Positions 3,161-26,910 are shown, counted from the first letter of the stretch. The stretch is DNA of 64,000 bases from Lentihominibacter sp. (GCA_051882875.1 JBJESQ010000043.1:7284-71283); one strand, 5' to 3'. Notes: a model not told the origin generated them from the letters alone. Made by a program: numbers and translations.

Positions 3161-5380
3161 CTATTTGCACTTGATCTTCTTAGCTGTTGACCATGCGCCG
3201 TATACTGTAGTTCCCTTGGAATTAGTCACACGGGCTCTTACCTTAACATAGTAAGTCTTGCCCTTCTTGAGCTTCTTTGTTACCTTTGATAAGCTCTTAA
3301 CATTAGTGTACTTAACAAGTCCCTTAGTTACAGCACTGTTGGTTCCAACGTATACATCGTATGCGCTTGCTCCGGATACACTCTTCCACTTAACTGTAAG
3401 CTTCTTTGACTTTGAAGTCAGACTTGAAACAGCTGCCTTGCCGATAGTAGTCTTAGCTGTTGCAGTTACCCACTTGCCAGATTCCTTCTGGTCAGTGCCG
3501 TATTCTGCGTAAGCGGCAACTCTGTATGCATTCGCAATGCCGGGTTCTGTTGTGTCAATATACTTTCCGTCTGCATCAGGAGTGATTGCAGTCCATACAT
3601 CATCAATCTTCTTCTCTACTGTGAATCCGTCTACAGGCTGGTCAGCTTCCCATGTAAGGGTAACCTTGTTGTAAGCTGTAGCTGCTGCCTTAACAGTTAC
3701 TGTTGCTGAACCGGCTTCAATCTTAGCGCTCAGCTGTGCAATCTGTGCTTCCAGAGTCTTGATTGTCTTTTCCAGTTCGTTTGCAGTCTTCTGGGAGTCA
3801 TATGCCGAAACTGCCTTTACTTCGTACAGATTCTCATCTGAAAGGTATACCGGAACCATATTCTCTCCGCACATTTCGCTCGGAACTTCTATGGAGTACT
3901 TGCCGCCGATGGCCTTGATTATTCCGCCTTCAACAGCCATATCTGCTTTCAGCGTTCCGCCGGTAATCTGAACTGTTCCGTTCTTAACAATGAGCTTATT
4001 GGCAGTAAGCGTCTTGCCGTTCAGGTCAAGGGTCACTGTCCTACCGACTGCATCAATGGTAACATCTTTATCGCCGTAATCAACATCGCGGTTAATCATA
4101 ACCGTTCCATCAACTGTACCTTCACTTGTTTTCTCATTTACCAGTTCCTGAAGCGTATAGACTTCATTATCAACTTCAAACAACTGATCCTGACCGAATG
4201 AACAGTAATCTTTTTCCTTCTCATTGCAGATTGCACAGTAATGATAGCAGGCTCCTTCTCTTATAAACCAAACATGGTCGCTGACGATTTCAATCGTCGC
4301 TACCTTATTTGCCCACTTGTTTCCCGGTACCTCAGCACCGTTAATGGCAGTTCCGTATATTCCCTTTGTTCCGGCTGCAGCTCCGTTCTTAATCACTTCG
4401 CCCTGATCATATATGTAGAGTTCATCTATCTCATCTTTTGTAAAGCCGTTTACAAAACCGTCAGTTGCAACAACCTTCAAGCCGTGGGCACTATCATATC
4501 CGATTCCGGCTGTTTCCAAAATGCTCTTGAGGCTGTAGAATGTTCCAACATATTTAGATCCCTTCATATTTGTCCAAGGATTCTCAGCAGTTGCTGTTGC
4601 CGATGCAGTGGATTTGATTTCGCAATCGTGTATTGCAACATCGGAATTTCCCTCCGATTTAACTGTAATTGAAGGCTCATCTTCGCCGCAGATAGCACAG
4701 TAATGCTTGCAGGTTTCGTTCTTAATGAACCAAACGTGATCGTTAGCTACTTCAACTCTCACAACGCCCTTCGCCCACTTGTTACCTGCAGAACCGTTGA
4801 TGGCTAATCCGTATGTTCCTGCGGCGCCTACGGCAGTTCCATCCTCCGCTTTTACTTCACCCTGATCATAGATGTAAACATCATCTATTTCATCCTGTGC
4901 AAATCCGTTTACAAATCCATCATCTGCAACCGATTTCAGACCATGAGCTTCATCACAGCTGATTCCTGCTGTTTCCAGAATGCTCTTAAGGCTGTAGAAT
5001 GTACCTACAAACTTGTGCTCCACGGAATCCTTAACGTATGCCCATGGATTCTCTGCTGTCGCTGTTACCGATGCTGCGGCCTTAATTTCAGCAGCTGTTA
5101 TAACTTTTGTCTCTTCGCCGACAACAAGTTCAATCGAACCGCCGGCCACTTCACCCTCAGCCAGTGCATCTATTTCAGGCTCCTCGCTTTCAGGCTCCTC
5201 TGTATCAGCTGACTGATCTGCATCATCTGTTATGGTGTCAAGCTGCTGTTCTACCCCATTATCGGTGCCTGCAGCCTCTGAAACGGCTTCTGCATCTGAT
5301 GCAAAAGCAATCCCCGTTGACATTGAAAGCAGCATTGTCAGACATACCAGCCATGCTAATGCTTTCTTGTAAAATTTCAT
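3161..5380 (-). CDS. Secreted/surface protein with two tandem sulfite-oxidase-like domains and a C-terminal fibronectin type III-like module
   Basis: Signal peptide (MKFYKKALAWLVCLTMLLSMSTGIAFA), acidic linker, and two ~125-aa repeats (GTFYSLKSILETAG...DGFVNGF...GNKWAKGV/GNKWANKV). The C-terminus is Lys-rich and FN3-like (KKLKKGKTYYVKVRA). Confidence 0.8.
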   Translation of the reverse strand: MKFYKKALAWLVCLTMLLSMSTGIAFASDAEAVSEAAGTDNGVEQQLDTITDDADQSADTEEPESEEPEIDALAEGEVAGGSIELVVGEETKVITAAEIKAAASVTATAENPWAYVKDSVEHKFVGTFYSLKSILETAGISCDEAHGLKSVADDGFVNGFAQDEIDDVYIYDQGEVKAEDGTAVGAAGTYGLAINGSAGNKWAKGVVRVEVANDHVWFIKNETCKHYCAICGEDEPSITVKSEGNSDVAIHDCEIKSTASATATAENPWTNMKGSKYVGTFYSLKSILETAGIGYDSAHGLKVVATDGFVNGFTKDEIDELYIYDQGEVIKNGAAAGTKGIYGTAINGAEVPGNKWANKVATIEIVSDHVWFIREGACYHYCAICNEKEKDYCSFGQDQLFEVDNEVYTLQELVNEKTSEGTVDGTVMINRDVDYGDKDVTIDAVGRTVTLDLNGKTLTANKLIVKNGTVQITGGTLKADMAVEGGIIKAIGGKYSIEVPSEMCGENMVPVYLSDENLYEVKAVSAYDSQKTANELEKTIKTLEAQIAQLSAKIEAGSATVTVKAAATAYNKVTLTWEADQPVDGFTVEKKIDDVWTAITPDADGKYIDTTEPGIANAYRVAAYAEYGTDQKESGKWVTATAKTTIGKAAVSSLTSKSKKLTVKWKSVSGASAYDVYVGTNSAVTKGLVKYTNVKSLSKVTKKLKKGKTYYVKVRARVTNSKGTTVYGAWSTAKKIKCK

Positions 5381-5483
5381 CTTGTCTCCTCTCTAATTAC
5401 TGATAACCATAAATTGTTTTTTTAATTATACATTGCCTTGCGTTATCATTTCAGTGGTTACAGCAATGGGCAGATGCCGCCGA

Positions 5484-5499
5484 TGTTGTTTCTCAAACA
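5484..5499. promoter_or_regulatory. Crp/Fnr-type box TGTTG-N6-AAACA upstream of a TATAAT -10 (5425-5430, minus strand)
   Basis: Near-palindrome matching the boxes at 1617, 16600, 16628 and 33137. Confidence 0.4.
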
Positions 5500-5506
5500 C
5501 ATTCAG

Positions 5507-8500
5507 TTATTTGCATCTGATTTTCTTTGCTGTGGACCAGGCTCCATACACCACAGTTCCCTTGGAGTTGGTCACTCTTGCTCTTACCTTCACATAATAG
5601 TATTTTTTCTTTTTCAAAGCCTTTGATGTTTTGCTGAGGCTCTTCACATTGCTGTACTTCACAAGACCCTTGGTAACTGCACTGTTGGTTCCAATCCACA
5701 CATCGTAGCCGGTTGCTCCGGATACAGCCTTCCACTTAACTGTAAGCTTCTTTGATTTCGAGGTCAGTCCGGATATCGCAGCCTTTCCCAGCGCTGTCTT
5801 TGCTGAAGCATAAACATACTTACTATCGTATTCGAATTTGTTCTCATCTGCCCCTTTGTACATGAGGCCTGCAGCGACCCTGTATTCGTTGGCAATACCC
5901 GGTTCAGTGACATCAGTGTAACTGTTTCCCATTACATTCAGCTCCTGCCAGCTTCCGTTAACCTTCTTTTCGGCTTTGTATATAACATCGTATTCACTGC
6001 CGCTGTCACTTGCATAGTTCCAGCTGAGTTTTACCTGATTGTATGCAGCCGGAGCCGCGCTTAGCTTTGCAGTTATATCCAGCAGCTTCACTTTAGCCTG
6101 AAGACATTCAACCTGTTCCTTCAGGCTTCTGACTGCAATCGCCGCCTCGTTGGCCGATCTGGCCGCCTCATAGGCCTCCTTCTGAGTCATGGTGTAGAGC
6201 TCTGTTTTGCCGTTAAATACAGGCACATAACCCGCTGCACAATGCTCGCCGGCTACCTCGTAGGTGTAGACCCCTCCTGATGCAGCTATCTTCCCCGTTC
6301 CCTCTGTGGCAAGGGTTCCGATTACTCTGCCGCTTCCTTTAATGTTCAGAGTTCCTGATTTAACTGTTATGCAGTTTTCCGTATTAGATGACAGGGATGC
6401 TGTTCCCAGATCAAGCACCACTGTATTATCCCCTGCATTTAATACGAATCCGTAATTTCCCGTGTCGATGTCATCCTGCAGAGTGATAATTCCGCCGCCT
6501 TCATTTGCTTTATCAAGGGCATCGATTAGATACAGCTCTTCCCCGGCATCGCCCTCCGCAGCCTTATAGATTACCTTTGGCTGTTTCAGATTGATTTCAA
6601 CAGAGGTCACCGGTGAAATAAGTCTGTTGCCTCCCAGGGCCGCATTCTCATCAAGTTGCTCTTTGCTCATGCCGTAGCCGAAACGTATGGTACCATTAAT
6701 TTTAGCTTCCTTGGCTATCGTCTCAAGGCTTCCTGCTCCCGTGTTCCAGGCTATTGCAAATGCAGCAGGTGCATCATATTCATTGCCGTTTTCGTAATAC
6801 TTGCTGCAGGTATTAAGAGTATCCATGCTTACAGTTGCAGATGTGCTTGTGCATACTACCTTTATGGAATCAACTCCATCAGATACAAGTCCCTGTTCTT
6901 TCAGCAGGGTTTCCAATGTCACATACTGGGTAACCGCTTCAATATTGTCAGACTTGCTTCCATAGGAATAACCGATAGGCTTGTCTGAAATCTTCAGGCT
7001 GTCAAAGGCCTCCACCGAGTAGGTCTTTGATGCAATTTCCTTGTTGCCCTTCTTGACTGTTACCTTTATTGCTTCCTTGTCCTTGACCGCAGTAATAACA
7101 TTTCCCTTGACCAGCACTCTGCCGCAATCCTTGCAGCACAGATCTCCCGAATAACCATCTGTCATCCATACAGCTTCTTTTTTCCCTACTGTTACCTTGT
7201 TTTCACTGTGTTCCGTTGAAAACAGTCCGTAGGACAGTCCGCAGCTGTCGCACACTGCCAGCTCATTGCAGGTTGCTGTTCCTCCGCTGTGAACGTGAGT
7301 TGACGATGCCTTTGCAATTTCCGGATACCCAGCCGCCTTAAGCTGGAATACGCTGTTGTCGTTTACAGCTGCCAGCACCTTGCTGCTGTCAGCGAAATCC
7401 GCTGCTGATGCTTTCTTAATTCCTTTGCTGTATGCGGCTGACGTGTCAAGCTCATTCTGAGTCATTCCCCCCTGGGCATAATCGCAGGAGGTGTCAAGAT
7501 AGTACACATCCTCAGTAACATTGGTGCTCCTCTTCATGTCTTTGCCGATAATTGCCCCGATGTTTTCCTTAGGCATATCACCGTCTACCTTACGGACATT
7601 TCCATAGTTAAAGGAATTGTACACCTTGTAATAAGAGCCGAAGCCTATGATTCCTCCTGCGCAGTCATAGTTTGAGGTTCCCTGTTCATAGGTTATTGTG
7701 CCGGCATTGTAGCAGCTGTCTATGGTTGAACTGCTTGACACTGAACTTCCTGCAATTCCTCCGATATTTCTTCCGTAAGCATAGAGGTTGCCATAGTTTC
7801 CGGAGCGGCTGATCCTGCCGCTGAGGTTTCCGACTATTCCGCCTACATAGTTCCCTCCTGTATCCGGGCAGTTCACATTGCCTTTGTTCATGCAGCCTTC
7901 TACTTCGCATGTACCCTTAAGCTCACCAACAATACCGCCTATTGTGCCGTAGCCTTCAACTGATGCGTAGTTGACACAATCGCTTATACTGCAGTTCCCT
8001 GTAGCGTATCCAACAATAGCCGCCGCGTGTCCGTTGCCGTTGGTCCCCTTCACCACGCAGTAAGAGCTGCATCCGGTCACATTGGTATTCTCAGCTCTTG
8101 CCACGAAGCCGCAGGCATCCTGCCCTTCGCTTGTTCCCCATATTTCCAGGTTCTTGACAACAGCTCTGTCGTTTGCACTGCTGCCTTTGCAATATTCGAA
8201 GAGCCCGTTAGCCGAGCCTTCGTAGTCCGTTATCTTGTGGCCGGCTCCGTCGAAGGTTCCTGCGAAAGGCTTATCTGCCTGGTAGTCGCCGATTCCGTCC
8301 CAGAAACGTCTGCCGCTTGTTCCGTCATCGTTCTTAAGGGAAATATCAGCTCCCAGCTTCACGGTTTTACCGCTAAAGGATTTGCCCTCATCAACCAGTA
8401 CCGAAAGTCCCGCCAGCTGCTCCGGAGTGGTGAGGGTAAACTCTGCGCTGTCAGCCTCGTACCAGCTTGTATCCGCCTTGTAGTCCCACATTTTCTTGCA

Positions 8501-10882
8501 GGTCAGAGGCTTAACATCTAAGGAAAGAGAAACATCGTCACCCAGCTCGCTGCCCACTGTGAAGGTGGCAACCTCTGTAGTTACCGGTTCCCCAACAGCC
8601 TCATCATCCCCATCTACATAGGTGAACACATACTCAAACGGATTCGACTGACCAGCTGCAGCCTTGTACACCAGATCTTCATCTTCAGGATTAACACCGT
8701 CCTTAAGCTTTACGGACACCATAAGGAAGTCGTCTTCATATACGGCATCTCCCGAATTAACCGGATAGTTTTCTACGGATTTAAACTCATCGTTCTCTTT
8801 TATTTTTCCGTTCTTTGCTACGGTTATTTCACATATATCGTTTGGCTCAATCTTCAACAGACCAGGTGAGGCCTGCTCGTAATAGCCTGTAATTTCACTG
8901 ATGCCGTTAGCCGTGACATAATTGCCTGAAAGCCTGTTTCCGTTGAGCTTGTAGTATCTGCACTTCCATCCCTCTGCTGGTTCACAGGAAAGATAAACCA
9001 CAGTTCCGTTGGTGATGCTTCCTGTTTTGGAAGCCTTTATCGTACCTTCAGATGCCTGCTTTACTGTCAGGGTGCCGCTTCCGGGCGAGCTGTTTTTCTC
9101 CCAGTAAAGAACCGGATAGCCGCTATCTCCGGCGACATAGGCCTTGCCGTTGACGTTAAGCTTCTCAAGAAGCGTTCCGTCGGTCATTTCCTTTTCGGTC
9201 ATGGAAACAGTGTCAACCGAAACGCTCTTGGCAAGATTGTAGGCATAGTATCCCGGCCATACATCGTCATCTCCGCAGCCCTCAAGATAGTAGCAGTCAG
9301 ATACCTTGTAGTTTCTGCCGTTGCTGTCACAGCCTATGCCTCTTCCCCTGTTGTTCCCGTTGGTTTTCAGCTTGCCTGTGTTGTAGCAGCAGTATATGCT
9401 CATTCCCTCGTTGGCTCCGATAATACCTCCTGTAGGGTTGGCATATACCGTCTCCAGATTTCCGTCATTATAGCAGTTAACAATTGTGCCCTTGTCAATC
9501 ATGGAACAGGCAACAATTCCTCCCAGGCCCTTGGAGTCTGTACAGTATGCGTAGGCATGGTTTGCCAGATTCTCCATCTTGATTCCGCCTTCAACGGAGG
9601 TTCCGCTTGCAGCATTTGATCCGCCTCCCATGCAGCCTACAAATCCCCCAACCATACGCCTTCCGAAGAAGTATCCTGAAAGGGACATGTTTCTTACTGC
9701 CGGCGGAGTATCAGGGTTTGTTTCTCCGTCATAAAGGCTTCCCATCATTCCGATGAGGCCCGTTCCCTGGGCATATCCATAAGCTGTTTCCGCAACAGAT
9801 CTGTAGCTCCATCTGAAGCAGTAAACATTCTTGATGTCGTGTCCGCCTCCATCCAGAGTTCCGTTAAAGGAGGCAACTATCATAGTAGAAGGATCGCCCG
9901 GATCCATCAGGTACTCGCCGCCGATAGGCGTCCAGTTGGGATAATCATAGCTGTTCTGGCCGTCCCCGTTGGAGAAGTTTTTGCTGTGTTCAATCTCTGA
10001 GCCGTCAACGCCGCCCATGTCAAGATCTGCCGTTATCTTCACCGTCCTGTTCGCGAAGTCATGCTTAATGAGTCCCATATATGCCTCATCCTGAACCCCT
10101 GCCACCAGGGATGTACTGGCTTCATATTTATTTTCAATTACATCAGGAAGACCTTCGTTCATATTCTGCTTAAGGGATGTCTGCGGGGTGTCGTAATCAA
10201 AGGTTCTGACAGCGCCGTTATCCGTTGCTCTGTCACCGCTTCGGGTGCCCTTAACCATGTATATCGGTGTTGTGCTGTTAATGCTTCCGTTTACTATTGC
10301 AGCCAGTCCGGCAAGCTGAGCCGGTGTGCTGATTTCGAAGCTCGTGTCGCTTTCGTTGTACCAGGACACATCCACTGCACCGTCCCACTTGGTGGTGGAA
10401 TAGTACTGGGCTACTACATTGGCATTATCCTTTGATGTTCCCTGAACTGCGGTAAAGCCATCGTAAGGTGCCTTGAAGCTGTACTGATACCCGCTTGAAG
10501 TCTCGGTAACCGATGCAAAGGCATATTCCGTTTTCTCCTCATTTACGTAGTATCTGACAGTGGCAATATCCTTGCCGCTTTTCTTCTCGAAGGTGCCTGT
10601 TACCTCAGTTCCGGCAGCTGCCCCCGTGAGATCAACCTGACCGGCCGCCTCTTCCTCAGGCTCTTCTGCCGATCCTGCCTGTGAATCATTCTCCGGTTCC
10701 GACTCCTGTAAATCGGCCGAACCCTCCGTCTGTTCATTGCTGACAGACTCCTGCTCCTCCTGCTGAACCGTCACGCCTGCATCTCCCTCCAGGGCGCTTA
10801 CAGGCACTCCGAAAATCGTAAATGTCATTACGACTGTCAGCATGAATACCAGGATTCTTCTCATTGACATTTTGTTTTTCAT
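5507..10882 (-). CDS. Giant (~1790 aa) surface protein with GLUG/beta-helix-like repeats, one sulfite-oxidase-like domain and a C-terminal FN3-like module
   Basis: ATG 10882 with SD AGGTGA and a signal peptide. It has two repeats beginning TP(A/E)QLAGL with GGIVG/GGIAG/GGIIG motifs and a domain VTLETLLKEQG...IRFGYG...ISPVTSVEI. The last ~270 aa are homologous to the 739-aa neighbour. Confidence 0.8.
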   Translation of the reverse strand: MKNKMSMRRILVFMLTVVMTFTIFGVPVSALEGDAGVTVQQEEQESVSNEQTEGSADLQESEPENDSQAGSAEEPEEEAAGQVDLTGAAAGTEVTGTFEKKSGKDIATVRYYVNEEKTEYAFASVTETSSGYQYSFKAPYDGFTAVQGTSKDNANVVAQYYSTTKWDGAVDVSWYNESDTSFEISTPAQLAGLAAIVNGSINSTTPIYMVKGTRSGDRATDNGAVRTFDYDTPQTSLKQNMNEGLPDVIENKYEASTSLVAGVQDEAYMGLIKHDFANRTVKITADLDMGGVDGSEIEHSKNFSNGDGQNSYDYPNWTPIGGEYLMDPGDPSTMIVASFNGTLDGGGHDIKNVYCFRWSYRSVAETAYGYAQGTGLIGMMGSLYDGETNPDTPPAVRNMSLSGYFFGRRMVGGFVGCMGGGSNAASGTSVEGGIKMENLANHAYAYCTDSKGLGGIVACSMIDKGTIVNCYNDGNLETVYANPTGGIIGANEGMSIYCCYNTGKLKTNGNNRGRGIGCDSNGRNYKVSDCYYLEGCGDDDVWPGYYAYNLAKSVSVDTVSMTEKEMTDGTLLEKLNVNGKAYVAGDSGYPVLYWEKNSSPGSGTLTVKQASEGTIKASKTGSITNGTVVYLSCEPAEGWKCRYYKLNGNRLSGNYVTANGISEITGYYEQASPGLLKIEPNDICEITVAKNGKIKENDEFKSVENYPVNSGDAVYEDDFLMVSVKLKDGVNPEDEDLVYKAAAGQSNPFEYVFTYVDGDDEAVGEPVTTEVATFTVGSELGDDVSLSLDVKPLTCKKMWDYKADTSWYEADSAEFTLTTPEQLAGLSVLVDEGKSFSGKTVKLGADISLKNDDGTSGRRFWDGIGDYQADKPFAGTFDGAGHKITDYEGSANGLFEYCKGSSANDRAVVKNLEIWGTSEGQDACGFVARAENTNVTGCSSYCVVKGTNGNGHAAAIVGYATGNCSISDCVNYASVEGYGTIGGIVGELKGTCEVEGCMNKGNVNCPDTGGNYVGGIVGNLSGRISRSGNYGNLYAYGRNIGGIAGSSVSSSSTIDSCYNAGTITYEQGTSNYDCAGGIIGFGSYYKVYNSFNYGNVRKVDGDMPKENIGAIIGKDMKRSTNVTEDVYYLDTSCDYAQGGMTQNELDTSAAYSKGIKKASAADFADSSKVLAAVNDNSVFQLKAAGYPEIAKASSTHVHSGGTATCNELAVCDSCGLSYGLFSTEHSENKVTVGKKEAVWMTDGYSGDLCCKDCGRVLVKGNVITAVKDKEAIKVTVKKGNKEIASKTYSVEAFDSLKISDKPIGYSYGSKSDNIEAVTQYVTLETLLKEQGLVSDGVDSIKVVCTSTSATVSMDTLNTCSKYYENGNEYDAPAAFAIAWNTGAGSLETIAKEAKINGTIRFGYGMSKEQLDENAALGGNRLISPVTSVEINLKQPKVIYKAAEGDAGEELYLIDALDKANEGGGIITLQDDIDTGNYGFVLNAGDNTVVLDLGTASLSSNTENCITVKSGTLNIKGSGRVIGTLATEGTGKIAASGGVYTYEVAGEHCAAGYVPVFNGKTELYTMTQKEAYEAARSANEAAIAVRSLKEQVECLQAKVKLLDITAKLSAAPAAYNQVKLSWNYASDSGSEYDVIYKAEKKVNGSWQELNVMGNSYTDVTEPGIANEYRVAAGLMYKGADENKFEYDSKYVYASAKTALGKAAISGLTSKSKKLTVKWKAVSGATGYDVWIGTNSAVTKGLVKYSNVKSLSKTSKALKKKKYYYVKVRARVTNSKGTVVYGAWSTAKKIRCK

Positions 10883-10908
10883 AATATCACCTGTTTCTTT
10901 TTTCACGG

Positions 10909-11697
10909 CTATGCATTCTCAGCCAGTGTTGCCGGAATGCAGCTCCTCACTGTTCTGCCGCCTATGGGCACTTCCATTATTCTCACATCCAGCCCGTATA
11001 TTTCCCTTATCAGGTTCTCCGTCAAGGTTTCCTCCGCTTCACCGCAGGCAAGCACCCTGTGGTTCTTTACCGCCAGCACATGGGTGGCATACTGAAGCGC
11101 ATGCTCAGGATTGTGGGTTGACAGAAGTATTGTGTATCCCTGTCCCGCCATCTTCTGAATATGCCTCAGCACATGCTGCTGATTGCCGTAGTCAAGATTG
11201 GCCGTAGGCTCATCCATAATGAGAATCTTTGCTCTTTGGGCCATGGCCCGGGCCAGGAGAACAAGCTGCCGCTCTCCTCCTGATATTTCATTAATACCCC
11301 TGTCTGCCATATGGCCTATTCCCAGATACTCCATCGCCCTTTCCGCAATGGCAAGCTGCTCCTCCCCCGGAGCCTGCAAAGGCGACAGCATCCCTGTCGT
11401 CCCCATGAGAACCGATTCCTTTACCGTGTAATTGAACACAGGGGTTTCCGACTGGGGTATGTAGGCTGCCATCTTAGCCATCTCTTTTCTTCCCATAGTT
11501 CTTATGTCTCTTCCGTTGAAGCTTATCTCTCCTGTGTAATGCTTCAGCAGCCCCAGCATGCATTTGAACAGGGTGCTCTTGCCGGCGCCGTTTGGTCCCA
11601 GCACCGCCACCAGCTGTCCCGAGCCCAGACTGAAGCTCAGATCATCCAGAACCTTCTCCTTATCGTATGCGAAGGTGAGGTTTCTAACATCTATCAT
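10909..11697 (-). CDS. ABC transporter ATP-binding protein (FecE/BtuD type)
   Basis: Walker A GPNGAGKST, signature ISGGERQ, Walker B LIMDEPTANLD. Confidence 0.95.
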   Translation of the reverse strand: MIDVRNLTFAYDKEKVLDDLSFSLGSGQLVAVLGPNGAGKSTLFKCMLGLLKHYTGEISFNGRDIRTMGRKEMAKMAAYIPQSETPVFNYTVKESVLMGTTGMLSPLQAPGEEQLAIAERAMEYLGIGHMADRGINEISGGERQLVLLARAMAQRAKILIMDEPTANLDYGNQQHVLRHIQKMAGQGYTILLSTHNPEHALQYATHVLAVKNHRVLACGEAEETLTENLIREIYGLDVRIMEVPIGGRTVRSCIPATLAENA

Positions 11698-12722
11698 TGC
11701 CTGCCGCCTCCTCCCGTAGTAAGCAGAAGGTAGAGGAACAGCGGCGCCCCCACAAATGATGTAAGTATTCCTATCGGAATCTCTGCTGTTGTTGCCAGCC
11801 GCGCGATATCATCAACCGCCAGCAGGAAGGTTGCCCCGAACAGCGCTGTAGCCGGGATGAGCTTCCTGTAATCATAACCATATATCATTCTGCAGAAATG
11901 GGGTATTACCAGACCAACCCATCCGATCATTCCCGACACCGAAACAGCAGAGGCCGTGAGAAGTGTTGCACAGACAACAACAATCAGCCTCAATGCCGTA
12001 ATGTTAATTCCAACAGATTTGGAGGTTTCCTCCTCAATTGTGAGAAGATTAAGTCTCCACCTAAGAAGAAACAGGGGAATCATTCCCACAGCCATGGGAA
12101 CAATAATAAATGCCAGATCCTCCTGTTTTATGGAGGAAAGCTGTCCCATAAGCCAGTAGGTTATGGCAGGCAGCTGGTCATCCGTATCTGCCACCAGCTT
12201 GATGAAGGAAGTCCCTGCCGAGAACAGAGAGGAAATAACCATTCCTCCAAGAATCATTGCCAGGGTTTCGCTTGTTTTGCTCAATCTGCTTACCGTATAT
12301 GCCAGCAGCACTGCGGCTATTCCGAAGACAAATGCCGATGCGGATATCAGGAAATACCCCGCCCCCAGAAGAATTGCCAGAGCCGCTCCGAAGCCTGCTC
12401 CCGTGGATGCTCCCAGGATATCCGGGGAAACAAGAGGATTCCTGAACATTCCCTGATAGCAGACCCCCGCCATGCTGAGAGCCGCTCCAATCAGAACCGC
12501 CGCCCCTATCCGGGGAAGACGTATTTCAAATAGAACCTTCTCCGCCGCAAGGTCCCAGGTTCGCTCCACATCTGTAAATGGCACCCTGGACCACATCACC
12601 TTGAGAAAATCCTCTATTGACAGAGAATACCGTCCCAGTACCGCTGAAACCAGAATTGCTGCAATGAATGCAGCAATCAGGATGATAAATTTAATTGTAC
12701 AGTTTCTGTTTTCACTACTCAT
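11694..12722 (-). CDS. FecCD-family ABC permease
   Basis: IRLPRI, FRNPLVSPDILG and GWVGLVIPH motifs with multiple transmembrane segments. Confidence 0.95.
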   Translation of the reverse strand: MSSENRNCTIKFIILIAAFIAAILVSAVLGRYSLSIEDFLKVMWSRVPFTDVERTWDLAAEKVLFEIRLPRIGAAVLIGAALSMAGVCYQGMFRNPLVSPDILGASTGAGFGAALAILLGAGYFLISASAFVFGIAAVLLAYTVSRLSKTSETLAMILGGMVISSLFSAGTSFIKLVADTDDQLPAITYWLMGQLSSIKQEDLAFIIVPMAVGMIPLFLLRWRLNLLTIEEETSKSVGINITALRLIVVVCATLLTASAVSVSGMIGWVGLVIPHFCRMIYGYDYRKLIPATALFGATFLLAVDDIARLATTAEIPIGILTSFVGAPLFLYLLLTTGGGGRQ

Positions 12723-13035
12723 TTATCTTGTAATAGTACTTTCCTGTCTTTGCATCGTAATATACGTTGCCCATCTTCTGAGCATCCTCGGGCATCTCAT
12801 CCATGTTCTGAAGATCCTCATCAGAGAAGGATACGGATTCCTTGCCCTGTGTTTCGGTGGACTCCTGTGTGGTCTCGATTTCCACGTTCCAGTGCAGAAT
12901 CAGAGCCAGCATTATTCCCACCGCCAGTATGAGCATCACATCGGACAGATTGGAGATGTAGCTCATGGGATTTACATCCTCACCGCTACTGTAACGGGTA
13001 CGCCTCCTCCTGTTTCTTCTGCCATCCCTACGCAT
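12715..13035 (-). CDS. DUF2149-family small membrane protein (ExbD-like transmembrane helix)
   Basis: NPMSYISNLSDVMLILAVGIMLAL single TM and C-terminal MGNVYYDAKTGKYY. It directly follows the ExbB-like gene. Confidence 0.85.
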   Translation of the reverse strand: MRRDGRRNRRRRTRYSSGEDVNPMSYISNLSDVMLILAVGIMLALILHWNVEIETTQESTETQGKESVSFSDEDLQNMDEMPEDAQKMGNVYYDAKTGKYYYKINE

Positions 13036-13807
13036 CGGTTTTCTCCTTCTTTTCTCCCTCCGTTTTCTTCTTTTCTCTCTTTTCCAGCAGACTTCTTACT
13101 ATCTGCCGCTGCTGGTTCTCTGTAAGGCTGTCTACTTCAATTCTGCCGCCGTCAGTCCTGCCTGATGCAGCAACTGCTTTTGCATTCTCAAGCTGCACAT
13201 CTACCACACTGTCAACAAGTGTTTCAAGATCCGACATGTATCCTGCGTACCAGTGCTTTCTGAAGGTATGAATTACAAGGCATATTCCTGCCGCCAGAAG
13301 TCCTGCTATTGTTGTATCAAAGGCAGTAAGCATCGACTCCGAAAGGGTCTGGGTATCTCCCTGGCCTAGAGCTATTATTCCGGGGCCCAGTGGAATCAGT
13401 GTTCCCAGCAGTCCCACCATTGGTGCCAGCTTCGATATAAGGTTCGTTGCGCTTAGAACGTTGTCATAATGTGACTGTTCCTTTTCGATTATGTTGTCTG
13501 CCAGGCTCACCAGCATTTCTTCGCTGAAATCAGGGTGCCTGGTAAGCTCCAGTAGAGCCTCCTTCTGTCTGGCCAGCAGTCCGCTGCCTTGGATGCACTC
13601 CTGCAGGTTGTCCTTGTTGGCTTTAATCGAGTCCAGCAGCTCCGGCAGGGAGTACTTCATGTGCCGCCTTTCTTTTATCAGCTCTGCCAGAATCCATCCT
13701 ATGCAGAATACTGCAAAGGCAATAAACAATATCAGTATCACTATCACCGGATTCTTCATTGTTGAAGATATGGTTCTCAGTATGGTCTGAAATATGTTAA
13801 GTTCCAT
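13028..13807 (-). CDS. MotA/TolQ/ExbB proton channel family protein
   Basis: APMVGLLGTLIPLGPG and AFDTTIAGL helices with three predicted TM segments. Confidence 0.9.
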   Translation of the reverse strand: MELNIFQTILRTISSTMKNPVIVILILFIAFAVFCIGWILAELIKERRHMKYSLPELLDSIKANKDNLQECIQGSGLLARQKEALLELTRHPDFSEEMLVSLADNIIEKEQSHYDNVLSATNLISKLAPMVGLLGTLIPLGPGIIALGQGDTQTLSESMLTAFDTTIAGLLAAGICLVIHTFRKHWYAGYMSDLETLVDSVVDVQLENAKAVAASGRTDGGRIEVDSLTENQQRQIVRSLLEKREKKKTEGEKKEKTDA

Positions 13808-13810
13808 TAA

Positions 13811-15403
13811 TTACTTGTCTCCTTTTAATCTTATCCTGAAGGAAATCAGCTCACTTGCAGCTCCCCCCAGGGCAACTGCCAGGCAGCCGAGTCCCGTAAA
13901 GAGGAGAATCATTTTCTGTTCTTTTTCTTTTTCCTCAGTGTTGTCTTCTTTTTTTACCTCTTCCACATCCATCGTCGCAGCTGTTTCCACCTGTGGAGTC
14001 AAAGCGCTTGCAAATTCTGCAGCAGCCGCATCAGAAAGCTCGAAGGTGGTTGGGCTTCCGGCAATCTGAGCTCTGGCATTGTCCTGCTTTTTGAGCTCGC
14101 TCTCCTTTGAGGCGCTGGCGGTTTTTGGATTGCTGTTATTCACAGATCCCTTATCACCGCTTCCCTCCGATGAGTCCCTGTTGTTGTTTCGGTCGGTTTC
14201 CTGATCTCCGTTGGGCTTCCCCTCTCCCTGTACCGTCTCTGATGTTGACAGGGGCTGGGAGCTTGAACCGACGCCGGCGGTAATGGCCGCCTCGCCTTTG
14301 CCTACAATGTCGTAGGACACCGTCACTGTGGCAAGGTCGCTGTACTTTCTGTCCGGCGTTACTGTTATGCCTGTTATTACAAGCACATCCGTGTTAGTTG
14401 ATTTCACGTTCATAAGCCCGGAAAGCCCGTCTCTGATATTCATGTTGTCAGTCTGCACAGTCATGGTAACCTTATGGGAGCCGTACGAACCGTTCAGACC
14501 TCCCATCTCACCTACGGTAGGCTGTCCCCTCAGGGTTACGTATACGCAGCTGACATACTTGTCGCTCTGGCTTGTCATGGATTCTGTCGGGGAAGTCTGC
14601 CCAAAGAGCAGTCTGAATCTTGTGCCTGCATTAAGTGATGAAAAGTCCGAACCGATATGCTCGAACTCCTCATTGAACTGCGCCCAGTTATCTTCAATGG
14701 CAAGCATTGGCTGAACCTTCTTGGCGCTTTTTGTTGCATTCTCGAAGGAGTATCCCAGGATTTTGCTCTTGTCCTCCACCTCTTCGGTGACAGTCTTTGT
14801 TACCACTTCATCCCAGGCTTCCTTTACCAGCACCTGTTCACCGTTTTCGCCTTCCTCGTATTCCGCATCATGGTGAATGGTTTCCTGCACTTCCTTTTCC
14901 ACGGTTCTTGTGCCGTAGATTATCGTTCTGTGCCCTGCCAGGTCTTCATAATAATATCTGGTCCTGAACAGCGCACTCTGGTCAAAGGATGTTCTGACTC
15001 CCTTGTGATCCTCCACATAGAACTTGAGGCTTTGCACATCGCCGTAATAAATGTTGGCGTATTCAAGCAGATCCGAAATGTAGATTCCTCTGGCGGAATC
15101 TACAATTGCCGTATACTTGGTTTTGCTGCTCTGCTGAAAGTAGGAATATGCCTGCTTAGGTGTGCTGCCGGTACTGCCGTAGATGCTTTCCGCCAGCTCC
15201 CGCCAGTGGTACTTGTCAACTTCCACATATTCATCCAGCTCCATCCCCAGATATCCCACCTTGATTGTAAGATAGTCCGTTGCCACATCGGCTCTTGCCA
15301 CTGAAGTCACCGAGGGCACCACCATGAGCAAAGCCAGCATTACTGCCAGAATTCCCGCAGAAATATTCAGTTTTCCCGGTTTGTTATTTTTCTGTTTTCT
15401 CAT
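13811..15403 (-). CDS. Secreted protein with a sulfite-oxidase-like domain, a low-complexity linker and a C-terminal membrane anchor
   Basis: N-terminal hydrophobic signal and the domain RGIYISDLLEYA...LKFYVED...TRYYY...VQPMLAI...FRLLFGQ. C-terminal TM MILLFTGLGCLAVALGGAA. The start codon is uncertain (15403 chosen). Confidence 0.7.
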   Translation of the reverse strand: MRKQKNNKPGKLNISAGILAVMLALLMVVPSVTSVARADVATDYLTIKVGYLGMELDEYVEVDKYHWRELAESIYGSTGSTPKQAYSYFQQSSKTKYTAIVDSARGIYISDLLEYANIYYGDVQSLKFYVEDHKGVRTSFDQSALFRTRYYYEDLAGHRTIIYGTRTVEKEVQETIHHDAEYEEGENGEQVLVKEAWDEVVTKTVTEEVEDKSKILGYSFENATKSAKKVQPMLAIEDNWAQFNEEFEHIGSDFSSLNAGTRFRLLFGQTSPTESMTSQSDKYVSCVYVTLRGQPTVGEMGGLNGSYGSHKVTMTVQTDNMNIRDGLSGLMNVKSTNTDVLVITGITVTPDRKYSDLATVTVSYDIVGKGEAAITAGVGSSSQPLSTSETVQGEGKPNGDQETDRNNNRDSSEGSGDKGSVNNSNPKTASASKESELKKQDNARAQIAGSPTTFELSDAAAAEFASALTPQVETAATMDVEEVKKEDNTEEKEKEQKMILLFTGLGCLAVALGGAASELISFRIRLKGDK

Positions 15404-16505
15404 TCTTGAAATAGGAGTTTGCCAGCATTGCCTTTGCCTCATCCTCTGTAAGGTCGTAATCCCAGAAGAGCTTATAGTATTCCTGAGCGACCTCTACAAT
15501 ATCGTAATCGTTGTAAACCTCCGGATATGCCAGCTGTCCCAGCCACCACACTCCCAGAACCATGTTTATTGACGGAGGCGATGACATCCAGCAGTAGGGG
15601 TCTCCGGGGATTTCGTAGTATCTGCCTGATTTCACTGCCTTAAGCTCGGACCACTCGTTGTCCTTCAGTTCATCGTATGGGCCTCCTGTTGTCAGGATAA
15701 TCATGTCAGGCTCATCCTGATAGAGGCTTTCCATGCTTACAATTGTGCCGCCCCCCTTATCAGTTATCTCTTCAGGAATAACTGCATTTCGCGCACCGAT
15801 GAGATCGATAACCTGAGCCTGAGAGGAACCCCTGGCGTTTACTGCAAGTCCCGTGGCGCCTGTGCCGTAGAGAATGCTTATCTTGTCCTCATCCTTGATT
15901 TTGGCACTGTTTGTCTCTGCCATCTCTATTGTTTTGTCCACGAAGGCAGCAAGCTCTTCGCCCTTTTCTTCTCTGCCCAGAAGCTTTCCCAGGGTTCTGT
16001 ATGTATCGGCCATGTGCTCAAGGGTTCCGTCATAGAATAGTGCCGGTATTCCCGTCTGCTTCTGTATTGAATCCATGTCCGACTTAACAGTGACCTTCTT
16101 GTCTCCCAGGTCAAACACCACCTGAGGCTCCGCTTCAATCAGCGCCTCCATGTTCAGTGTTGACTTGCTTCCGTAAAACTGCCCGAAGGTAGGCAGGTAC
16201 AACAGCTCCTCAGGAAGATATTTCTCCTGATCCACGCTGGGGCTTGCTGATATTCCCACAAGCATATCCGATGCGATTGGTGTGAGCATCATCGTTGCTG
16301 TGGCTCCTGATGGTGCAATTTTTGTAATCTCTGCAGGTATCTCCACACTGTCTCTTCCGGAATCGTCCGTAACCTTCTGTGTCTCCACGCCCTCCAGCGG
16401 GTCATAGTCCGACTCATTTCCTCCGCATCCCGTAAGGGCAAGGGACAGCACCATCACAAGCGCCATGGCCACCGCCGCTGTTGTTCTGAATGTTCTCTTT
16501 CGCAT
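15384..16505 (-). CDS. ABC transporter substrate-binding lipoprotein (FepB/BtuF-like class III)
   Basis: ATG 16505 with SD GAGGTGAGG. Lipobox LTGC; motifs LNMEALIEAEPQVV and WSELKAVKSGRYYEIP. Confidence 0.92.
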   Translation of the reverse strand: MRKRTFRTTAAVAMALVMVLSLALTGCGGNESDYDPLEGVETQKVTDDSGRDSVEIPAEITKIAPSGATATMMLTPIASDMLVGISASPSVDQEKYLPEELLYLPTFGQFYGSKSTLNMEALIEAEPQVVFDLGDKKVTVKSDMDSIQKQTGIPALFYDGTLEHMADTYRTLGKLLGREEKGEELAAFVDKTIEMAETNSAKIKDEDKISILYGTGATGLAVNARGSSQAQVIDLIGARNAVIPEEITDKGGGTIVSMESLYQDEPDMIILTTGGPYDELKDNEWSELKAVKSGRYYEIPGDPYCWMSSPPSINMVLGVWWLGQLAYPEVYNDYDIVEVAQEYYKLFWDYDLTEDEAKAMLANSYFKNEKTEK

Positions 16506-17877: not shown

Positions 17878-17904
17878 TGAGGTATATGAAACAATTCGCG
17901 CGGA

Positions 17905-25327: not shown

Positions 25328-25357
25328 ATTATACATTATCCTGCAAAACAATGTCAA
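25328..25357 (-). promoter_or_regulatory. Sigma-A promoter TTGACA-N18-TATAAT for the ferredoxin-AOR1 operon
   Basis: Consensus hexamers lie just upstream of the aptamer. The -35 box overlaps the stop codon of the upstream lipoprotein gene. Confidence 0.75.
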
Positions 25358-25848
25358 TTGAATTCGATGCGGTTCACCATTCTTATCCAGTATGCGGAGT
25401 CGGATTCCGGAATAATAACACGGCAAGGGGCAGACTCCCTGTCCAGAGGCTCCCCGTCAATTCCGAAGGCCAGATATATATCGTGCTCCCTCAGATAGTC
25501 TCCCGTCAGCGGGACATCGTACTCGTCGATTCCATAAAATCTCAGGCTGCTGATGTCATCCTTTGACAGCCCGTACTGCTGAAGCAGGGTGCCCAGCTCC
25601 ACCCCAGTGGCTCTCACCTCTCCTATCTTGTCGCTGGTGCTGTGGGTCTTCACGGTCACGCAATCCATGGCCGCAAGCTCACCGATTGTCACCGCCGTAT
25701 CCTCCTGCTGAATGCCGCTGAGGACAATCTTCTCGTCCGCATAGCCGCTTATGTCGATATCGTCCGTCCCGCAGCCGCCCACGCAAAGGCATGCCATGCA
25801 GGCCATAATAATCCCTATTGTCAGTGTAACTGTTCTTTTAGCTTTCAT
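25354..25848 (-). CDS. Lipoprotein with an oxidoreductase molybdopterin-binding (sulfite-oxidase-like) domain
   Basis: Lipobox VGGC, followed by GVELGTLLQQYG...LRFYGIDEY...YLAFGIDGEPL...PCRVIIP...YWIRMVNRIEF, the clearest match to the Oxidored_molyb pattern in the window. Confidence 0.85.
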   Translation of the reverse strand: MKAKRTVTLTIGIIMACMACLCVGGCGTDDIDISGYADEKIVLSGIQQEDTAVTIGELAAMDCVTVKTHSTSDKIGEVRATGVELGTLLQQYGLSKDDISSLRFYGIDEYDVPLTGDYLREHDIYLAFGIDGEPLDRESAPCRVIIPESDSAYWIRMVNRIEFN

Positions 25849-25889
25849 GATGTTTCCCTTTGTCACCTGTTTACTGTTTCTGTTACCTG

Positions 25890-26204
25890 TTATTCTTCGA
25901 CTACGTAGTATTTGCCCGTTTCCGGGTCCTTGTAGACCTTGCCCATTTCCTGGAGATTGCTGTTCGCATCTATCTCTTCGGTTGCATTCTGCTCAACCCC
26001 TTCAACTTCATACTTTTTTTCAGGATTCTGAATTTCTCCCTTCTCAGTGACATCAACATTCCAGCTCATAATCAGTGCCAGAATCAAGCCACAGGCAAAA
26101 ACAAGCATCGCATCTGCCATATTTCCCAAGCCATCCATAGGGCTGAAGCTTTCGCTGCTGTGAGTTCGTCTGAGCCTGCCCTTATCTCGTATTCTCATTA
26201 CCAT
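25890..26204 (-). CDS. DUF2149-family small membrane protein
   Basis: SPMDGLGNMADAMLVFACGLILAL and MGKVYKDPETGKYY. Paralog of 12715-13035. Confidence 0.85.
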   Translation of the reverse strand: MVMRIRDKGRLRRTHSSESFSPMDGLGNMADAMLVFACGLILALIMSWNVDVTEKGEIQNPEKKYEVEGVEQNATEEIDANSNLQEMGKVYKDPETGKYYVVEE

Positions 26205-26910
26205 TTGCCTCCCGCTGCGCTTTAAGTTTCCGAGCATATGCAACGAACTGCTCCTTTGTTATTTCCTCCTCCGGTGCTTCTTCCCTGCCCTGTTCTTCAA
26301 GAACTGTTTCGAGAACTGTTTCAAGACCGATAACGTACTGCTCATACCAGCTTTTTCTGATTCCTGAAATAACGAAGCACACTGCTGCACTTATTAATCC
26401 CGCAACAGTTGTGTCGAAGGCGATGAGCATTGATCCAGACAGTGTTTTGGTATCACCCTGGCCTAATGCTATAAGCCCCGGACCCAGAGGTATCAGTGTT
26501 CCCATAAGGCCGAACATCGGTGCAACTCTTGCAATAATATCTGTGATTCTCACTATCTTGTTATAATGTGCCTCCTCATCGGCAAGGAGCTGTCTTGCTA
26601 GCGCTTCTCTTGTATCAAACGGCAAGCTGCTTCTGTTCAAAAGCTGCAGAACTGCATGTCTCTGTCTCTTAAGAAGACCGCTGTTATTTATCACATTCTT
26701 CAGTTCGTCTACAGTTTTACCCTGCATGCTGTCAATCAGTCCCGGAATATCGCCTTTGAGCTTCCTTCTCTCCGTAAACGCTTCCGCAATTATACTTCCA
26801 AGCATTATAATGGCAACTATGATCAGGATAATCAAAATTACTATTGTTGGTATCTGCAGCGAGCTGCTTATAAGCCTTAAAATATCTTTTACTGCTTCCG
26901 CCATAAACAA
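26182..26910 (-). CDS. MotA/TolQ/ExbB proton channel family protein
   Basis: APMFGLMGTLIPLGPG and AFDTTVAGL. Paralog of 13028-13807. Confidence 0.9.
   Translation of the reverse strand: MFMAEAVKDILRLISSSLQIPTIVILIILIIVAIIMLGSIIAEAFTERRKLKGDIPGLIDSMQGKTVDELKNVINNSGLLKRQRHAVLQLLNRSSLPFDTREALARQLLADEEAHYNKIVRITDIIARVAPMFGLMGTLIPLGPGLIALGQGDTKTLSGSMLIAFDTTVAGLISAAVCFVISGIRKSWYEQYVIGLETVLETVLEEQGREEAPEEEITKEQFVAYARKLKAQREANGNENTR

What the first reader, a model, noticed from the sequence alone, without database searches (positions are those of the whole stretch)
12715..15403. ExbB/ExbD-like proton motor in an apparent monoderm, with no TonB
Seen: the DUF2149 TM helix reads NLSDVMLIL here and NMADAMLVF in the paralog at 25890-26204. 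Both follow an ExbB-like gene and, upstream of that, a secreted protein with a C-terminal TM anchor and a long flexible linker. Known: ExbD has an essential TM Asp in a DVMLVLL context, and 5:2 MotA/ExbB stators convert ion flux into mechanical work. Inference: DUF2149 is the ExbD equivalent, and the anchored protein may be the force-transducing partner that strips cofactor from surface carriers.
Basis: inference. Interest (0 to 1): 0.7.

Follow-up and report, generated by a model that had tools for sequence, protein, structure and literature searches.

The report
Ton-like proton motor without outer membrane
A gut-type Gram-positive bacterium with no outer membrane and no TonB carries two copies of an ExbB-like/ExbD-like proton-channel pair, each placed after a tail-anchored surface protein inside a nutrient-importer operon. 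This suggests that single-membrane bacteria also use membrane voltage to capture scarce cofactors.

Summary
Both DUF2149 genes (12715-13035, 25890-26243) follow a MotA/ExbB-family gene, and each pair follows a secreted protein with a roughly 90-residue disordered linker and a C-terminal membrane helix.

The DUF2149 Asp is invariant in 150 of 150 family representatives. The ExbB-like proteins keep the two pore threonines of ExbB.

The genome has no TonB, ExbD, MotB/OmpA or Omp85 match. These are its only MotA/ExbB genes. None of 50 related genomes with this module has Omp85.

The order binding protein, anchored protein, ExbB-like, DUF2149 holds in about 70 of the 80 closest loci. In those loci it usually sits with a FecCD/ATPase importer and a giant surface protein.

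One window copy is under a Moco riboswitch beside tungsten-enzyme (AOR) genes.

Direct homology of DUF2149 to ExbD is weak and limited to the membrane helix. Complex formation and force transduction are inferred.

The ExbB/ExbD reading of this pair is already published for Bacteroidota HmuU/HmuV, where it is assumed to serve TonB. The monoderm, TonB-less version with a tail-anchored partner is not in the papers I could search. This scan has met it in at least 18 other genomes. I file it as a new variant of a known kind.

The parts
12715..13035 (-). DUF2149 protein 1 (106 aa), the candidate B subunit (ExbD-like). It has a basic N-terminus, a TM helix with N29/D32, an acidic linker and a C-terminal G-x-V-Y-Y-D-x-x-T-G-K-Y-Y hairpin motif.
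   Evidence: Pfam PF09919 at 32.8 bits. D32 is invariant in 150/150 representatives. hhalign aligns D32 with ExbD D25.
13028..13807 (-). MotA/TolQ/ExbB-family protein 1 (259 aa), the candidate A subunit, with the 3-TM ExbB-type layout.
   Evidence: PF01618 at 47 bits. The family profile aligns to E. coli ExbB 5sv0 over residues 17-214, and T136 and T166 fall on ExbB T148 and T181.
13811..15403 (-). Anchored protein 1 (530 aa): signal/TM, a 258-aa domain of unknown fold, an Ig-like domain, a roughly 90-aa disordered linker and a C-terminal TM helix. It is the candidate client or force transducer.
   Evidence: AF2 models. No PDB fold match for the N-terminal domain. Homologues lie directly upstream of the ExbB-like gene in 70/80 loci.
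15384..16505 (-). Substrate-binding lipoprotein 1 (Peripla_BP_2, lipobox LTGC). The probable start is the Met at 16505; the ORF is open to 16679.
   Evidence: PF01497 at 74.8 bits. Weak IsdE/BtuF/FhuD-type NCBIfam hits.
11694..12722 (-). FecCD-type ABC permease 1. Its start overlaps the DUF2149 stop by 8 nt.
   Evidence: PF01032 at 286.8 bits.
10909..11697 (-). ABC ATPase 1.
   Evidence: PF00005 at 120 bits.
3161..10906 (-). Two giant secreted surface proteins (1799 aa and 739 aa) that end operon 1.
   Evidence: ORFs. Homologues follow the DUF2149 gene or the importer in most related loci.
25890..26243 (-). DUF2149 protein 2 (NMADAMLVF helix), the paralogue.
   Evidence: PF09919 at 42.1 bits. 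36% identical to copy 1.
26182..26910 (-). MotA/TolQ/ExbB-family protein 2 (242 aa).
   Evidence: PF01618 at 49.2 bits. 41% identical to copy 1.
26923..28299 (-). Anchored protein 2 (458 aa): N-terminal domain, Big_2 domain, linker and C-terminal TM helix.
   Evidence: Big_2 hit. 25% identity over 156 aa to anchored protein 1, E 1e-4.
28296..31206 (-). Importer of operon 2: binding protein (28296-29405), ATPase (29357-30316) and FecCD permease (30163-31206).
   Evidence: Peripla_BP_2 at 87.6 bits.
31207..32895 (-). First gene of operon 2: a secreted surface protein (about 562 aa from the Met at 32895) with Fn3-type domains.
32965..33096 (-). Moco/Tuco riboswitch aptamer in the leader of operon 2.
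   Evidence: Rfam RF01055 at 45 bits, cut-off 36, E 1.7e-7.
25354..25866 (-). 170-aa lipoprotein with a sulfite-oxidase-type molybdopterin-binding domain, directly after DUF2149-2.
   Evidence: PF00174 at 46 bits. Homologues hold the same position in L066, L070, L076, L078, L081 and L084.

Best explanation
Each ExbB-like/DUF2149 pair most likely forms a small ExbB/ExbD-type ion-driven stator in the single cytoplasmic membrane. ExbB-like subunits would surround the DUF2149 helices, and the buried Asp would be protonated and deprotonated as protons flow. There is no TonB and no outer membrane. The likeliest client is the protein encoded just before the pair: a surface protein held by a C-terminal TM helix and carrying its binding domains on a roughly 90-residue flexible stalk, which makes it a topologically inverted TonB analogue. 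The motor would pull or turn this helix, or the short conserved strand that precedes it. That would change the ectodomain or its contact with the giant wall proteins, so that a tightly held ligand passes to the binding lipoprotein and is imported by the FecCD/ATPase transporter. In this window the cargo is tied to molybdenum/tungsten cofactor metabolism. Shown here: family membership of the A subunit, invariance of the Asp, absence of TonB/ExbD/MotB/Omp85, conserved gene order, and the riboswitch. Inferred: the complex, its stoichiometry, proton coupling, the client and the cargo.
For: PF01618 and PF09919 pass their cut-offs for both pairs. These are the only MotA_ExbB and DUF2149 genes in the genome. 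No ExbD, OmpA/MotB or TonB_C match exists, so DUF2149 is the only candidate B subunit. D32 is invariant in 150/150 representatives; N29, M34 and L35 are conserved in at least 148/150. 614 representatives match at E<=0.001. hhalign places D32 on ExbD D25 with score 23.0. The reversed control scores 11.7, 0/30 column shuffles reach the real score, and 1/50 within-helix shuffles does. The ExbB-like profile aligns to ExbB 5sv0 over its whole length with both pore Thr conserved. The genes overlap: 8 nt here, and 4 nt in at least 28 related loci. The order anchored protein, ExbB-like, DUF2149 is kept in 70-74 of 80 loci while the importer genes change position. Three loci with an unrelated ectodomain still have a C-terminally anchored protein in that position. 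Paralogue types co-segregate: Anch against DUF, Fisher p 4e-7, not corrected for phylogeny. No Omp85 in this genome or in 50 related genomes. Control genomes show that Methanosarcina acetivorans has MotA_ExbB and DUF2149 but no ExbD, TonB_C or Omp85 match. Cargo link: Moco riboswitch here and in L010 and L016; AOR/MoaD/MoeB next to the module in six loci; a molybdopterin-domain lipoprotein after DUF2149-2. In print, HmuU/HmuV are read as ExbB/ExbD-like (PMC10100974, PMC12583661).
Against: No direct evidence exists for a complex, for proton flow or for mechanical work. DUF2149 fails the ExbD Pfam model. Its profile finds no ExbD or TolR chain in the PDB. It lacks the folded ExbD periplasmic domain. 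The profile match covers one TM helix, with probability 14%. The N-terminal domain of the anchored protein has no known fold (best Foldseek E 0.16). Its similarity to the molybdopterin-domain lipoprotein is a 32-column match of 16% probability. The 80 loci are those closest to this window. An earlier check in this scan (e1-1973521, not re-tested here) found a receptor-like gene before the pair in only about half of 123 genera. This genome has MoaA, MoaC, two MoeA and a ModA-type binding protein, so it does not depend on imported cofactor. Operon 1 has no detectable riboswitch. Only 2 of 31 related loci scanned show a Moco aptamer at Rfam threshold.
Confidence: 0.5

Rival explanations
1. The pair is a real ion-driven stator, but its client is the cell-wall layer of giant surface proteins and not the import path. 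In this Tol-like role it would assemble, tension, position or release those proteins, and the importer would be only a neighbour.
For: A giant surface protein follows the module in most loci. An earlier check in this scan (e1-1973521) found the wall-protein neighbour as common as the importer (67% against 57%). TolQR shows that this motor family can serve envelope mechanics (PMC12505986).
Against: In the 80 loci the binding lipoprotein and the anchored protein are always directly upstream, and FecCD/ATPase lie in the same cluster in most. Type-2 loci have no giant protein after the pair; they have a small molybdopterin-domain lipoprotein instead. Operon 2 is under a metabolite riboswitch, which fits nutrient uptake.
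Confidence: 0.2
2. The pair does no mechanical work. It would be a proton-gated channel or sensor that links importer or receptor activity to membrane energisation or to signalling, or a scaffold that holds the tail-anchored protein near the importer.
For: Only neighbourhood evidence links it to a client. DUF2149 has no folded external domain with which to grip a partner.
Against: Every characterised member of the MotA/ExbB family with a B-subunit Asp is a force or torque generator (PMC12505986, PMC7014051). The residues that line the proton path are invariant. The DUF2149 C-terminal hairpin is also strongly conserved (G89, V91, Y92, D94, Y101), which points to a specific external contact.
Confidence: 0.12
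3. The module works as proposed but the cargo is not an intact Mo/W-pterin cofactor. It would be another large chelate, such as a metallophore-bound tungstate or molybdate, haem, or a corrinoid, and the Mo/W link would be regulatory only.
For: The binding proteins are Peripla_BP_2 type with weak IsdE/BtuF/FhuD-like hits. The genome makes its own cofactor and has a ModA-type transporter. Operon 1 has no riboswitch. Earlier notes of this scan report B12 and haem contexts for the same trio (e1-4530769, e1-3890830; not tested here).
Against: A Moco aptamer controls operon 2 and the L010 operon. A molybdopterin-binding-domain lipoprotein lies inside operon 2. AOR genes lie next to the module in several genomes.
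Confidence: 0.3

Closest known systems
HmuU/HmuV (with HmuT, HmuS) of the Bacteroidota hmuYRSTUV haem operon
   Same: It has the same two Pfam families, MotA_ExbB and DUF2149, as an adjacent pair inside an uptake operon for a tightly bound cofactor (PMC11681262, PMC10434189). HmuU/HmuV are already described as ExbB/ExbD-like (PMC10100974). DUF2149 matches in the Bacteroides thetaiotaomicron control genome.
   Different: The hmu operon belongs to diderms and includes a TonB-dependent receptor (HmuR), a hemophore (HmuY) and a CobN-like dechelatase (HmuS). The papers assume the pair works through TonB. HmuT is described as a multi-pass membrane protein. Here there is no outer membrane, no TonB and no CobN-like gene. 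The gene before the pair encodes a single-pass, C-terminally anchored surface protein, and the import route is a FecCD ABC transporter. The statement in PMC10100974 that HmuV is diagnostic of haem transport does not hold for this context.
ExbB-ExbD-TonB (Ton system) of diderm bacteria
   Same: It shares an A subunit of the same family with the two pore threonines, and a small N-in B subunit with a buried Asp in a D-V-M-L context. Both have a third protein with one TM helix and a long flexible linker carrying a distal binding domain, and both serve uptake of scarce chelates that end in a FecCD/BtuCD-type importer.
   Different: There is no TonB_C, no ExbD Pfam match, no Omp85 and hence no TonB-dependent transporter. 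The anchored partner has its TM helix at the C-terminus, whereas TonB has it at the N-terminus. The B subunit has a roughly 15-residue hairpin motif in place of a folded periplasmic domain.
TolQ-TolR-TolA and MotA-MotB
   Same: They share the superfamily and the Asp-dependent logic. The best NCBIfam hits of the A subunits are TolQ, PomA and MotP.
   Different: The scores lie far below the equivalog cut-offs (19.6 against 221 bits; 25.8 against 341 bits). The genome has no OmpA-type peptidoglycan-binding domain and no other MotA-family stator gene. Flagellar genes as such were not searched.
Isd/NEAT haem relay of Gram-positive bacteria
   Same: Wall-anchored surface receptors pass a tightly bound cofactor inwards to a Peripla_BP_2 lipoprotein (IsdE-like) and a FecCD-type importer.
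   Different: From my own knowledge, the Isd relay is described as passive and driven by affinity. This operon adds a proton-channel pair and a stalked, membrane-anchored protein, which implies an energised step.

Membership tests
MotA/TolQ/ExbB proton-channel superfamily (A subunit) | Match to Pfam PF01618 above the gathering score | tested here: met
   47.0 and 49.2 bits against a cut-off of 22.9.
MotA/TolQ/ExbB proton-channel superfamily (A subunit) | ExbB/TolQ-type three-helix layout with conserved pore threonines in TM2 and TM3 (ExbB T148, T181) | tested here: met
   The profile of 28 sequences aligns to ExbB 5sv0 residues 17-214 (E 3.6e-4). T136 and T166 are invariant and fall on T148 and T181. 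The layout is read from the sequence alignment, not from a structure.
MotA/TolQ/ExbB proton-channel superfamily (A subunit) | Pentameric ring enclosing two B-subunit helices (5:2) | not testable with these tools
   No multimer prediction is available.
ExbD/TolR family (B subunit, PF02472) | Match to the ExbD Pfam model or to solved ExbD/TolR sequences | tested here: not met
   None of 28 members gives an ExbD hit even at E<=10. No PF02472 match in the genome. The DUF2149 profile finds no ExbD or TolR chain in the PDB at E<=10.
ExbD/TolR family (B subunit, PF02472) | Single N-in TM helix with an essential Asp near its cytoplasmic end | tested here: met
   A basic N-terminus is followed by the helix N-L-S-D-V-M-L. 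D32 is invariant in 150/150 representatives. ExbD D25 lies in F-I-D-V-M-L. Essentiality was not tested.
ExbD/TolR family (B subunit, PF02472) | Detectable common ancestry by profile-profile comparison | tested here: inconclusive
   hhalign gives 31 columns, E 0.0019 and probability 14%, with Asp aligned to Asp. Controls: reversed 11.7 against 23.0; 0/30 column shuffles and 1/50 within-helix shuffles reach the real score. The ExbD profile was shallow (enterobacterial sequences plus TolR).
ExbD/TolR family (B subunit, PF02472) | Folded C-terminal periplasmic domain of about 80 residues | tested here: not met
   After the helix come only a variable acidic linker and a roughly 15-residue conserved motif, G-x-V-Y-x-D-x-x-T-G-x-Y-Y. 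Most family members are 100-140 aa long.
Ton system (ExbB-ExbD-TonB with TonB-dependent transporters) | TonB protein | tested here: not met
   No TonB_C (PF03544) match in the genome. The same search matches in E. coli, Caulobacter and B. thetaiotaomicron.
Ton system (ExbB-ExbD-TonB with TonB-dependent transporters) | Outer membrane with beta-barrel assembly (Omp85/BamA) | tested here: not met
   No Omp85 in this genome, which is 92.5% complete, and none in 50 genomes carrying related loci. All 7 diderm controls match.
Bacteroidota hmu module (HmuS-HmuT-HmuU-HmuV) | Adjacent MotA_ExbB and DUF2149 genes | tested here: met
Bacteroidota hmu module (HmuS-HmuT-HmuU-HmuV) | Co-operonic CobN-type dechelatase, TonB-dependent receptor, HmuY hemophore and multi-pass HmuT | tested here: not met
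   Pfam scans of the main ORFs of both operons show none of these. The gene before the pair encodes a single-pass, tail-anchored protein. The hmu features are taken from PMC10100974 and PMC11681262.

The most novel reading that the evidence does not exclude
Monoderm bacteria have their own Ton-like machine. An ExbB-like/DUF2149 proton motor would pull on a stalked, C-terminally anchored receptor that reaches through the thick cell wall. That pull would extract protein-bound cofactors from surface capture proteins and feed an ABC importer. In this window the cargo would be the labile molybdenum/tungsten pterin cofactor; elsewhere it would be B12 or haem. Energised nutrient capture would then not be an outer-membrane speciality, and the Bacteroidota HmuU/HmuV pair might also work independently of TonB.
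Probability: 0.2. Interest if true: 0.85.

Novelty: new variant of a known kind. Interest (0 to 1): 0.62.

Why it matters
Proton-driven force transduction for nutrient uptake is treated as a solution to the outer-membrane problem of Gram-negative bacteria. A conserved ExbB/ExbD-type pair built into ABC-importer operons of bacteria with one membrane would show an energised capture step at the Gram-positive surface. It would also assign a function to DUF2149. It questions two points in the literature: that HmuU/HmuV act through TonB, and that HmuV is diagnostic of haem transport. It gives a concrete entry point, with cultured carriers and a riboswitch-controlled copy, to the question of how gut anaerobes scavenge labile cofactors.

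Tried and rejected
- ExbD membership of DUF2149 by HMMER gave no hit in Pfam or in PDB sequences. Only hhalign gives a weak match over the TM helix.
- I tested whether the anchored protein has a sulfite-oxidase or pterin-binding fold. The whole-protein model gave only weak Ig-like, SbsC and SorT hits. The isolated 258-aa N-terminal domain (pLDDT 95) has no PDB match. hhalign to the molybdopterin-domain lipoprotein is local and has 16% probability. This reading is not supported for the anchored protein.
- No riboswitch was found upstream of operon 1, even at E<=1.
- The anti-phage Zorya-type reading was rejected because PADLOC gave no hits.
- Dependence of this genome on imported cofactor was rejected. 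MoaA, MoaC, MoeA and a ModA-type binding protein are present.
- The DUF2149 hairpin motif recurs 13-25 times in two giant proteins. Pfam gives only spurious partial hits there, so this adds no functional clue.
- The NCBIfam TolQ, PomA and MotP hits are far below their cut-offs.
- Literature searches for a monoderm ExbB system or a bacterial Moco importer found nothing.


Full report
**What is there**

The minus strand of the window carries two paralogous operons.

- Operon 1 encodes, in order:
  - a Peripla_BP_2 binding lipoprotein (15384-16505);
  - a 530-aa anchored protein (13811-15403);
  - a MotA/ExbB-family protein (13028-13807);
  - a DUF2149 protein (12715-13035);
  - a FecCD permease (11694-12722);
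  - an ABC ATPase (10909-11697);
  - two giant secreted proteins (3161-10906).
- The genes of operon 1 abut or overlap: ExbB-like/DUF2149 by 8 nt, DUF2149/FecCD by 8 nt and FecCD/ATPase by 4 nt.
- Operon 2 starts with a Moco/Tuco riboswitch (32965-33096, 45 bits). It then encodes a surface protein, FecCD, ATPase, a binding protein, a 458-aa anchored protein (26923-28299), an ExbB-like protein (26182-26910), DUF2149 (25890-26243) and a 170-aa lipoprotein with a molybdopterin-binding domain (25354-25866).
- Downstream of operon 2 lie ferredoxin, AOR, MoaD, MoeB and MobB/FdhD genes.

**The A subunit**

- Both ExbB-like proteins pass PF01618.
- An alignment of 28 orthologues has an invariant block, AP-M-x-G-L-L-G-T-L-I-P-L-G-P-G ... 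A-F-D-T-T-x-x-G-L.
- Its profile aligns to E. coli ExbB (5sv0) from residue 17 to 214. T136 and T166 fall on ExbB T148 and T181, the pore residues that face ExbD Asp25.
- NCBIfam gives only far-sub-threshold TolQ, PomA and MotP hits. This is a separate branch of the superfamily.

**The B subunit**

- DUF2149 has a basic N-terminus, one TM helix, a variable acidic linker and a conserved C-terminal motif, G-x-V-Y-x-D-x-x-T-G-x-Y-Y.
- A profile search of 1.84 billion cluster representatives found 614 members.
- Among 150 aligned sequences (146 of the top representatives, the two window copies and two rows entered twice), the Asp (D32) is invariant, N29 is kept in 148, and M34 and L35 in 149.
- HMMER finds no ExbD relationship in Pfam or PDB.
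- hhalign against a shallow ExbD/TolR profile aligns only the helix, Asp on Asp, with score 23.0, E 0.0019 and probability 14%.
- In controls, the reversed alignment scores 11.7. None of 30 column shuffles reaches the real score, and 1 of 50 shuffles confined to the helix does.
- Common ancestry is therefore possible but not shown. Functional equivalence rests on architecture, position and exclusivity.
- On exclusivity: the genome has exactly two MotA_ExbB and two DUF2149 genes, all in this window. It has no ExbD and no OmpA/MotB domain.

**Monoderm, no TonB**

- The genome is 1.48 Mb and 92.5% complete. It has no TonB_C and no Omp85 match, while the control genomes match as expected.
- Its nearest relatives are labelled Clostridiales, Lachnospiraceae and Oscillospiraceae.
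- None of 50 genomes holding related loci has Omp85. This includes one labelled Bacteroidaceae, so that label is doubtful.
- In the control set, Methanosarcina acetivorans has MotA_ExbB and DUF2149 but no ExbD, TonB_C or Omp85 match. The pair therefore also exists in an archaeon without an outer membrane.

**The third protein**

- The AF2 model of anchored protein 1 shows a signal/TM helix, folded domains at 40-395 (pLDDT about 90), a disordered stretch at 399-489 and a C-terminal helix at 490-528.
- The N-terminal 258 residues, modelled alone, reach pLDDT 95 but match nothing in the PDB (best E 0.16). The whole model gives only weak Ig-like, SbsC and SorT hits.
- All 70 orthologues end in one TM helix followed by an aromatic-basic tail. 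Most have a short strand-like motif 15-30 residues before the helix. I propose this motif, without a test, as a docking site for the DUF2149 hairpin, by analogy with the TonB-ExbD contact.

**Conservation of the module**

- A pattern scan of one genome per species found 376 loci, and the best 80 were analysed.
- 70 of the 80 have a recognisable anchored-protein homologue directly before the ExbB-like gene. 74 have an ORF of at least 150 aa ending there.
- Three loci with an unrelated ectodomain still encode a C-terminally anchored protein in that position.
- The binding lipoprotein precedes the anchored protein in most of these loci. FecCD/ATPase are upstream, downstream or divergent.
- A giant surface protein (type 1) or a small molybdopterin-domain lipoprotein (type 2) follows the pair.
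- Paralogue types of the three proteins co-segregate, with Fisher p values from 4e-7 to 7e-4. These values are not corrected for shared descent.
- The module is rare. It occurs in 2 of 300 genomes sampled across the class.
- My 80 loci are the ones closest to this window. An earlier check in this scan (e1-1973521) reports a receptor-like gene before the pair in only about half of 123 genera, which I did not re-test.

**Cargo**

- A Moco aptamer precedes operon 2, the type-1 operon of L010 (61.6 bits) and the AOR gene next to the module in L016.
- No other riboswitch tied to the module was found in 31 loci, and none precedes operon 1.
- AOR, MoaD and MoeB genes lie next to the module in six loci.
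- A Denitrobacterium-labelled locus places the pair beside a ModA-type binding protein.
- This genome has MoaA, MoaC, two MoeA and a ModA-type protein. Any cofactor import is therefore supplementary here.
[quoted passage not shown] That gives a rationale, by inference only, for an energised extraction step.

**Comparison with what is known**

- The same two families form HmuU/HmuV of the Bacteroidota hmuYRSTUV operon (PMC11681262, PMC10434189).
- PMC10100974 already calls them ExbB- and ExbD-like. Together with PMC12583661 it assumes that they power the TonB-dependent receptor HmuR. It also states that HmuV is diagnostic of haem transport.
- What I could not find in print is the TonB-less, monoderm version with a tail-anchored partner and an ABC importer.
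- PMC12505986 notes many 'generic ion transporter' homologues of unknown function.
- Within this scan the same trio has been noted in at least 18 other genomes. This window adds a double copy, one of them under a Moco riboswitch.

**Verdict**

The module is best filed as a new variant of the ExbB/ExbD-type motor family. The stator reading is likely. The client and the cargo are plausible but rest on gene neighbourhood alone.

Noticed in passing
window 14513-15286 (-): The N-terminal 258-aa domain of anchored protein 1 is modelled at pLDDT 95 and pTM 0.81, with a long beta-ribbon insert. It has no Foldseek match in the PDB (best E 0.16). It may be a new fold.
   Followed up: partly
window 13811-14100 (-); L005-L084: A short strand-like motif lies 15-30 residues before the C-terminal TM helix of the anchored proteins, inside otherwise variable linkers. 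It reads TFELSD here and QLVL or W-x-Y-E-M in relatives.
   Followed up: partly
P0217, P0293: The C-terminal hairpin motif of DUF2149 (G-x-V-Y-x-D-x-x-T-G-x-Y-Y) recurs 13-25 times in two giant proteins of 1599 and 2870 aa. Pfam gives no meaningful family for the repeat.
   Followed up: partly
G000 contig C34:48507-50827 and C25:14130-15865: The genome has moaC, moaA and a ModA-type binding protein side by side, and two MoeA genes elsewhere. It can make the Mo/W cofactor itself despite carrying the riboswitch-controlled import operon.
   Followed up: yes
L010:5980-6115 (+); L016:17526-17638 (+): Moco riboswitches occur in related genomes. One lies upstream of a type-1 operon (binding protein, anchored protein, ExbB-like, DUF2149, FecCD, ATPase). 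The other lies upstream of an AOR gene next to the module.
   Followed up: partly
L082:1866-4932: In a Denitrobacterium-labelled (Actinomycetota) contig, the ExbB-like/DUF2149 pair is followed by a PpiC-type rotamase lipoprotein and a ModA/WtpA-type SBP_bac_11 protein, not by a FecCD system.
   Followed up: no
L031:6678-10252: In Sarcina sp. DSM 11001 a 757-aa DUF6591 protein lies between the ExbB-like and DUF2149 genes, an unusual split of the pair.
   Followed up: no
window 1657-3024 (-) and 16743-17984 (-): Homologues of the 455-aa metallophosphoesterase and of the 413-aa methyltransferase recur beside the module in several related loci: L007, L029, L036, L044, L052, L053, L057 and L079; and L007, L025, L029, L044 and L071.
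   Followed up: no
L052 (genome G329): A contig labelled Bacteroidaceae carries the Clostridia-type module, and its genome has no Omp85 match. The taxonomic label is probably wrong.
   Followed up: partly
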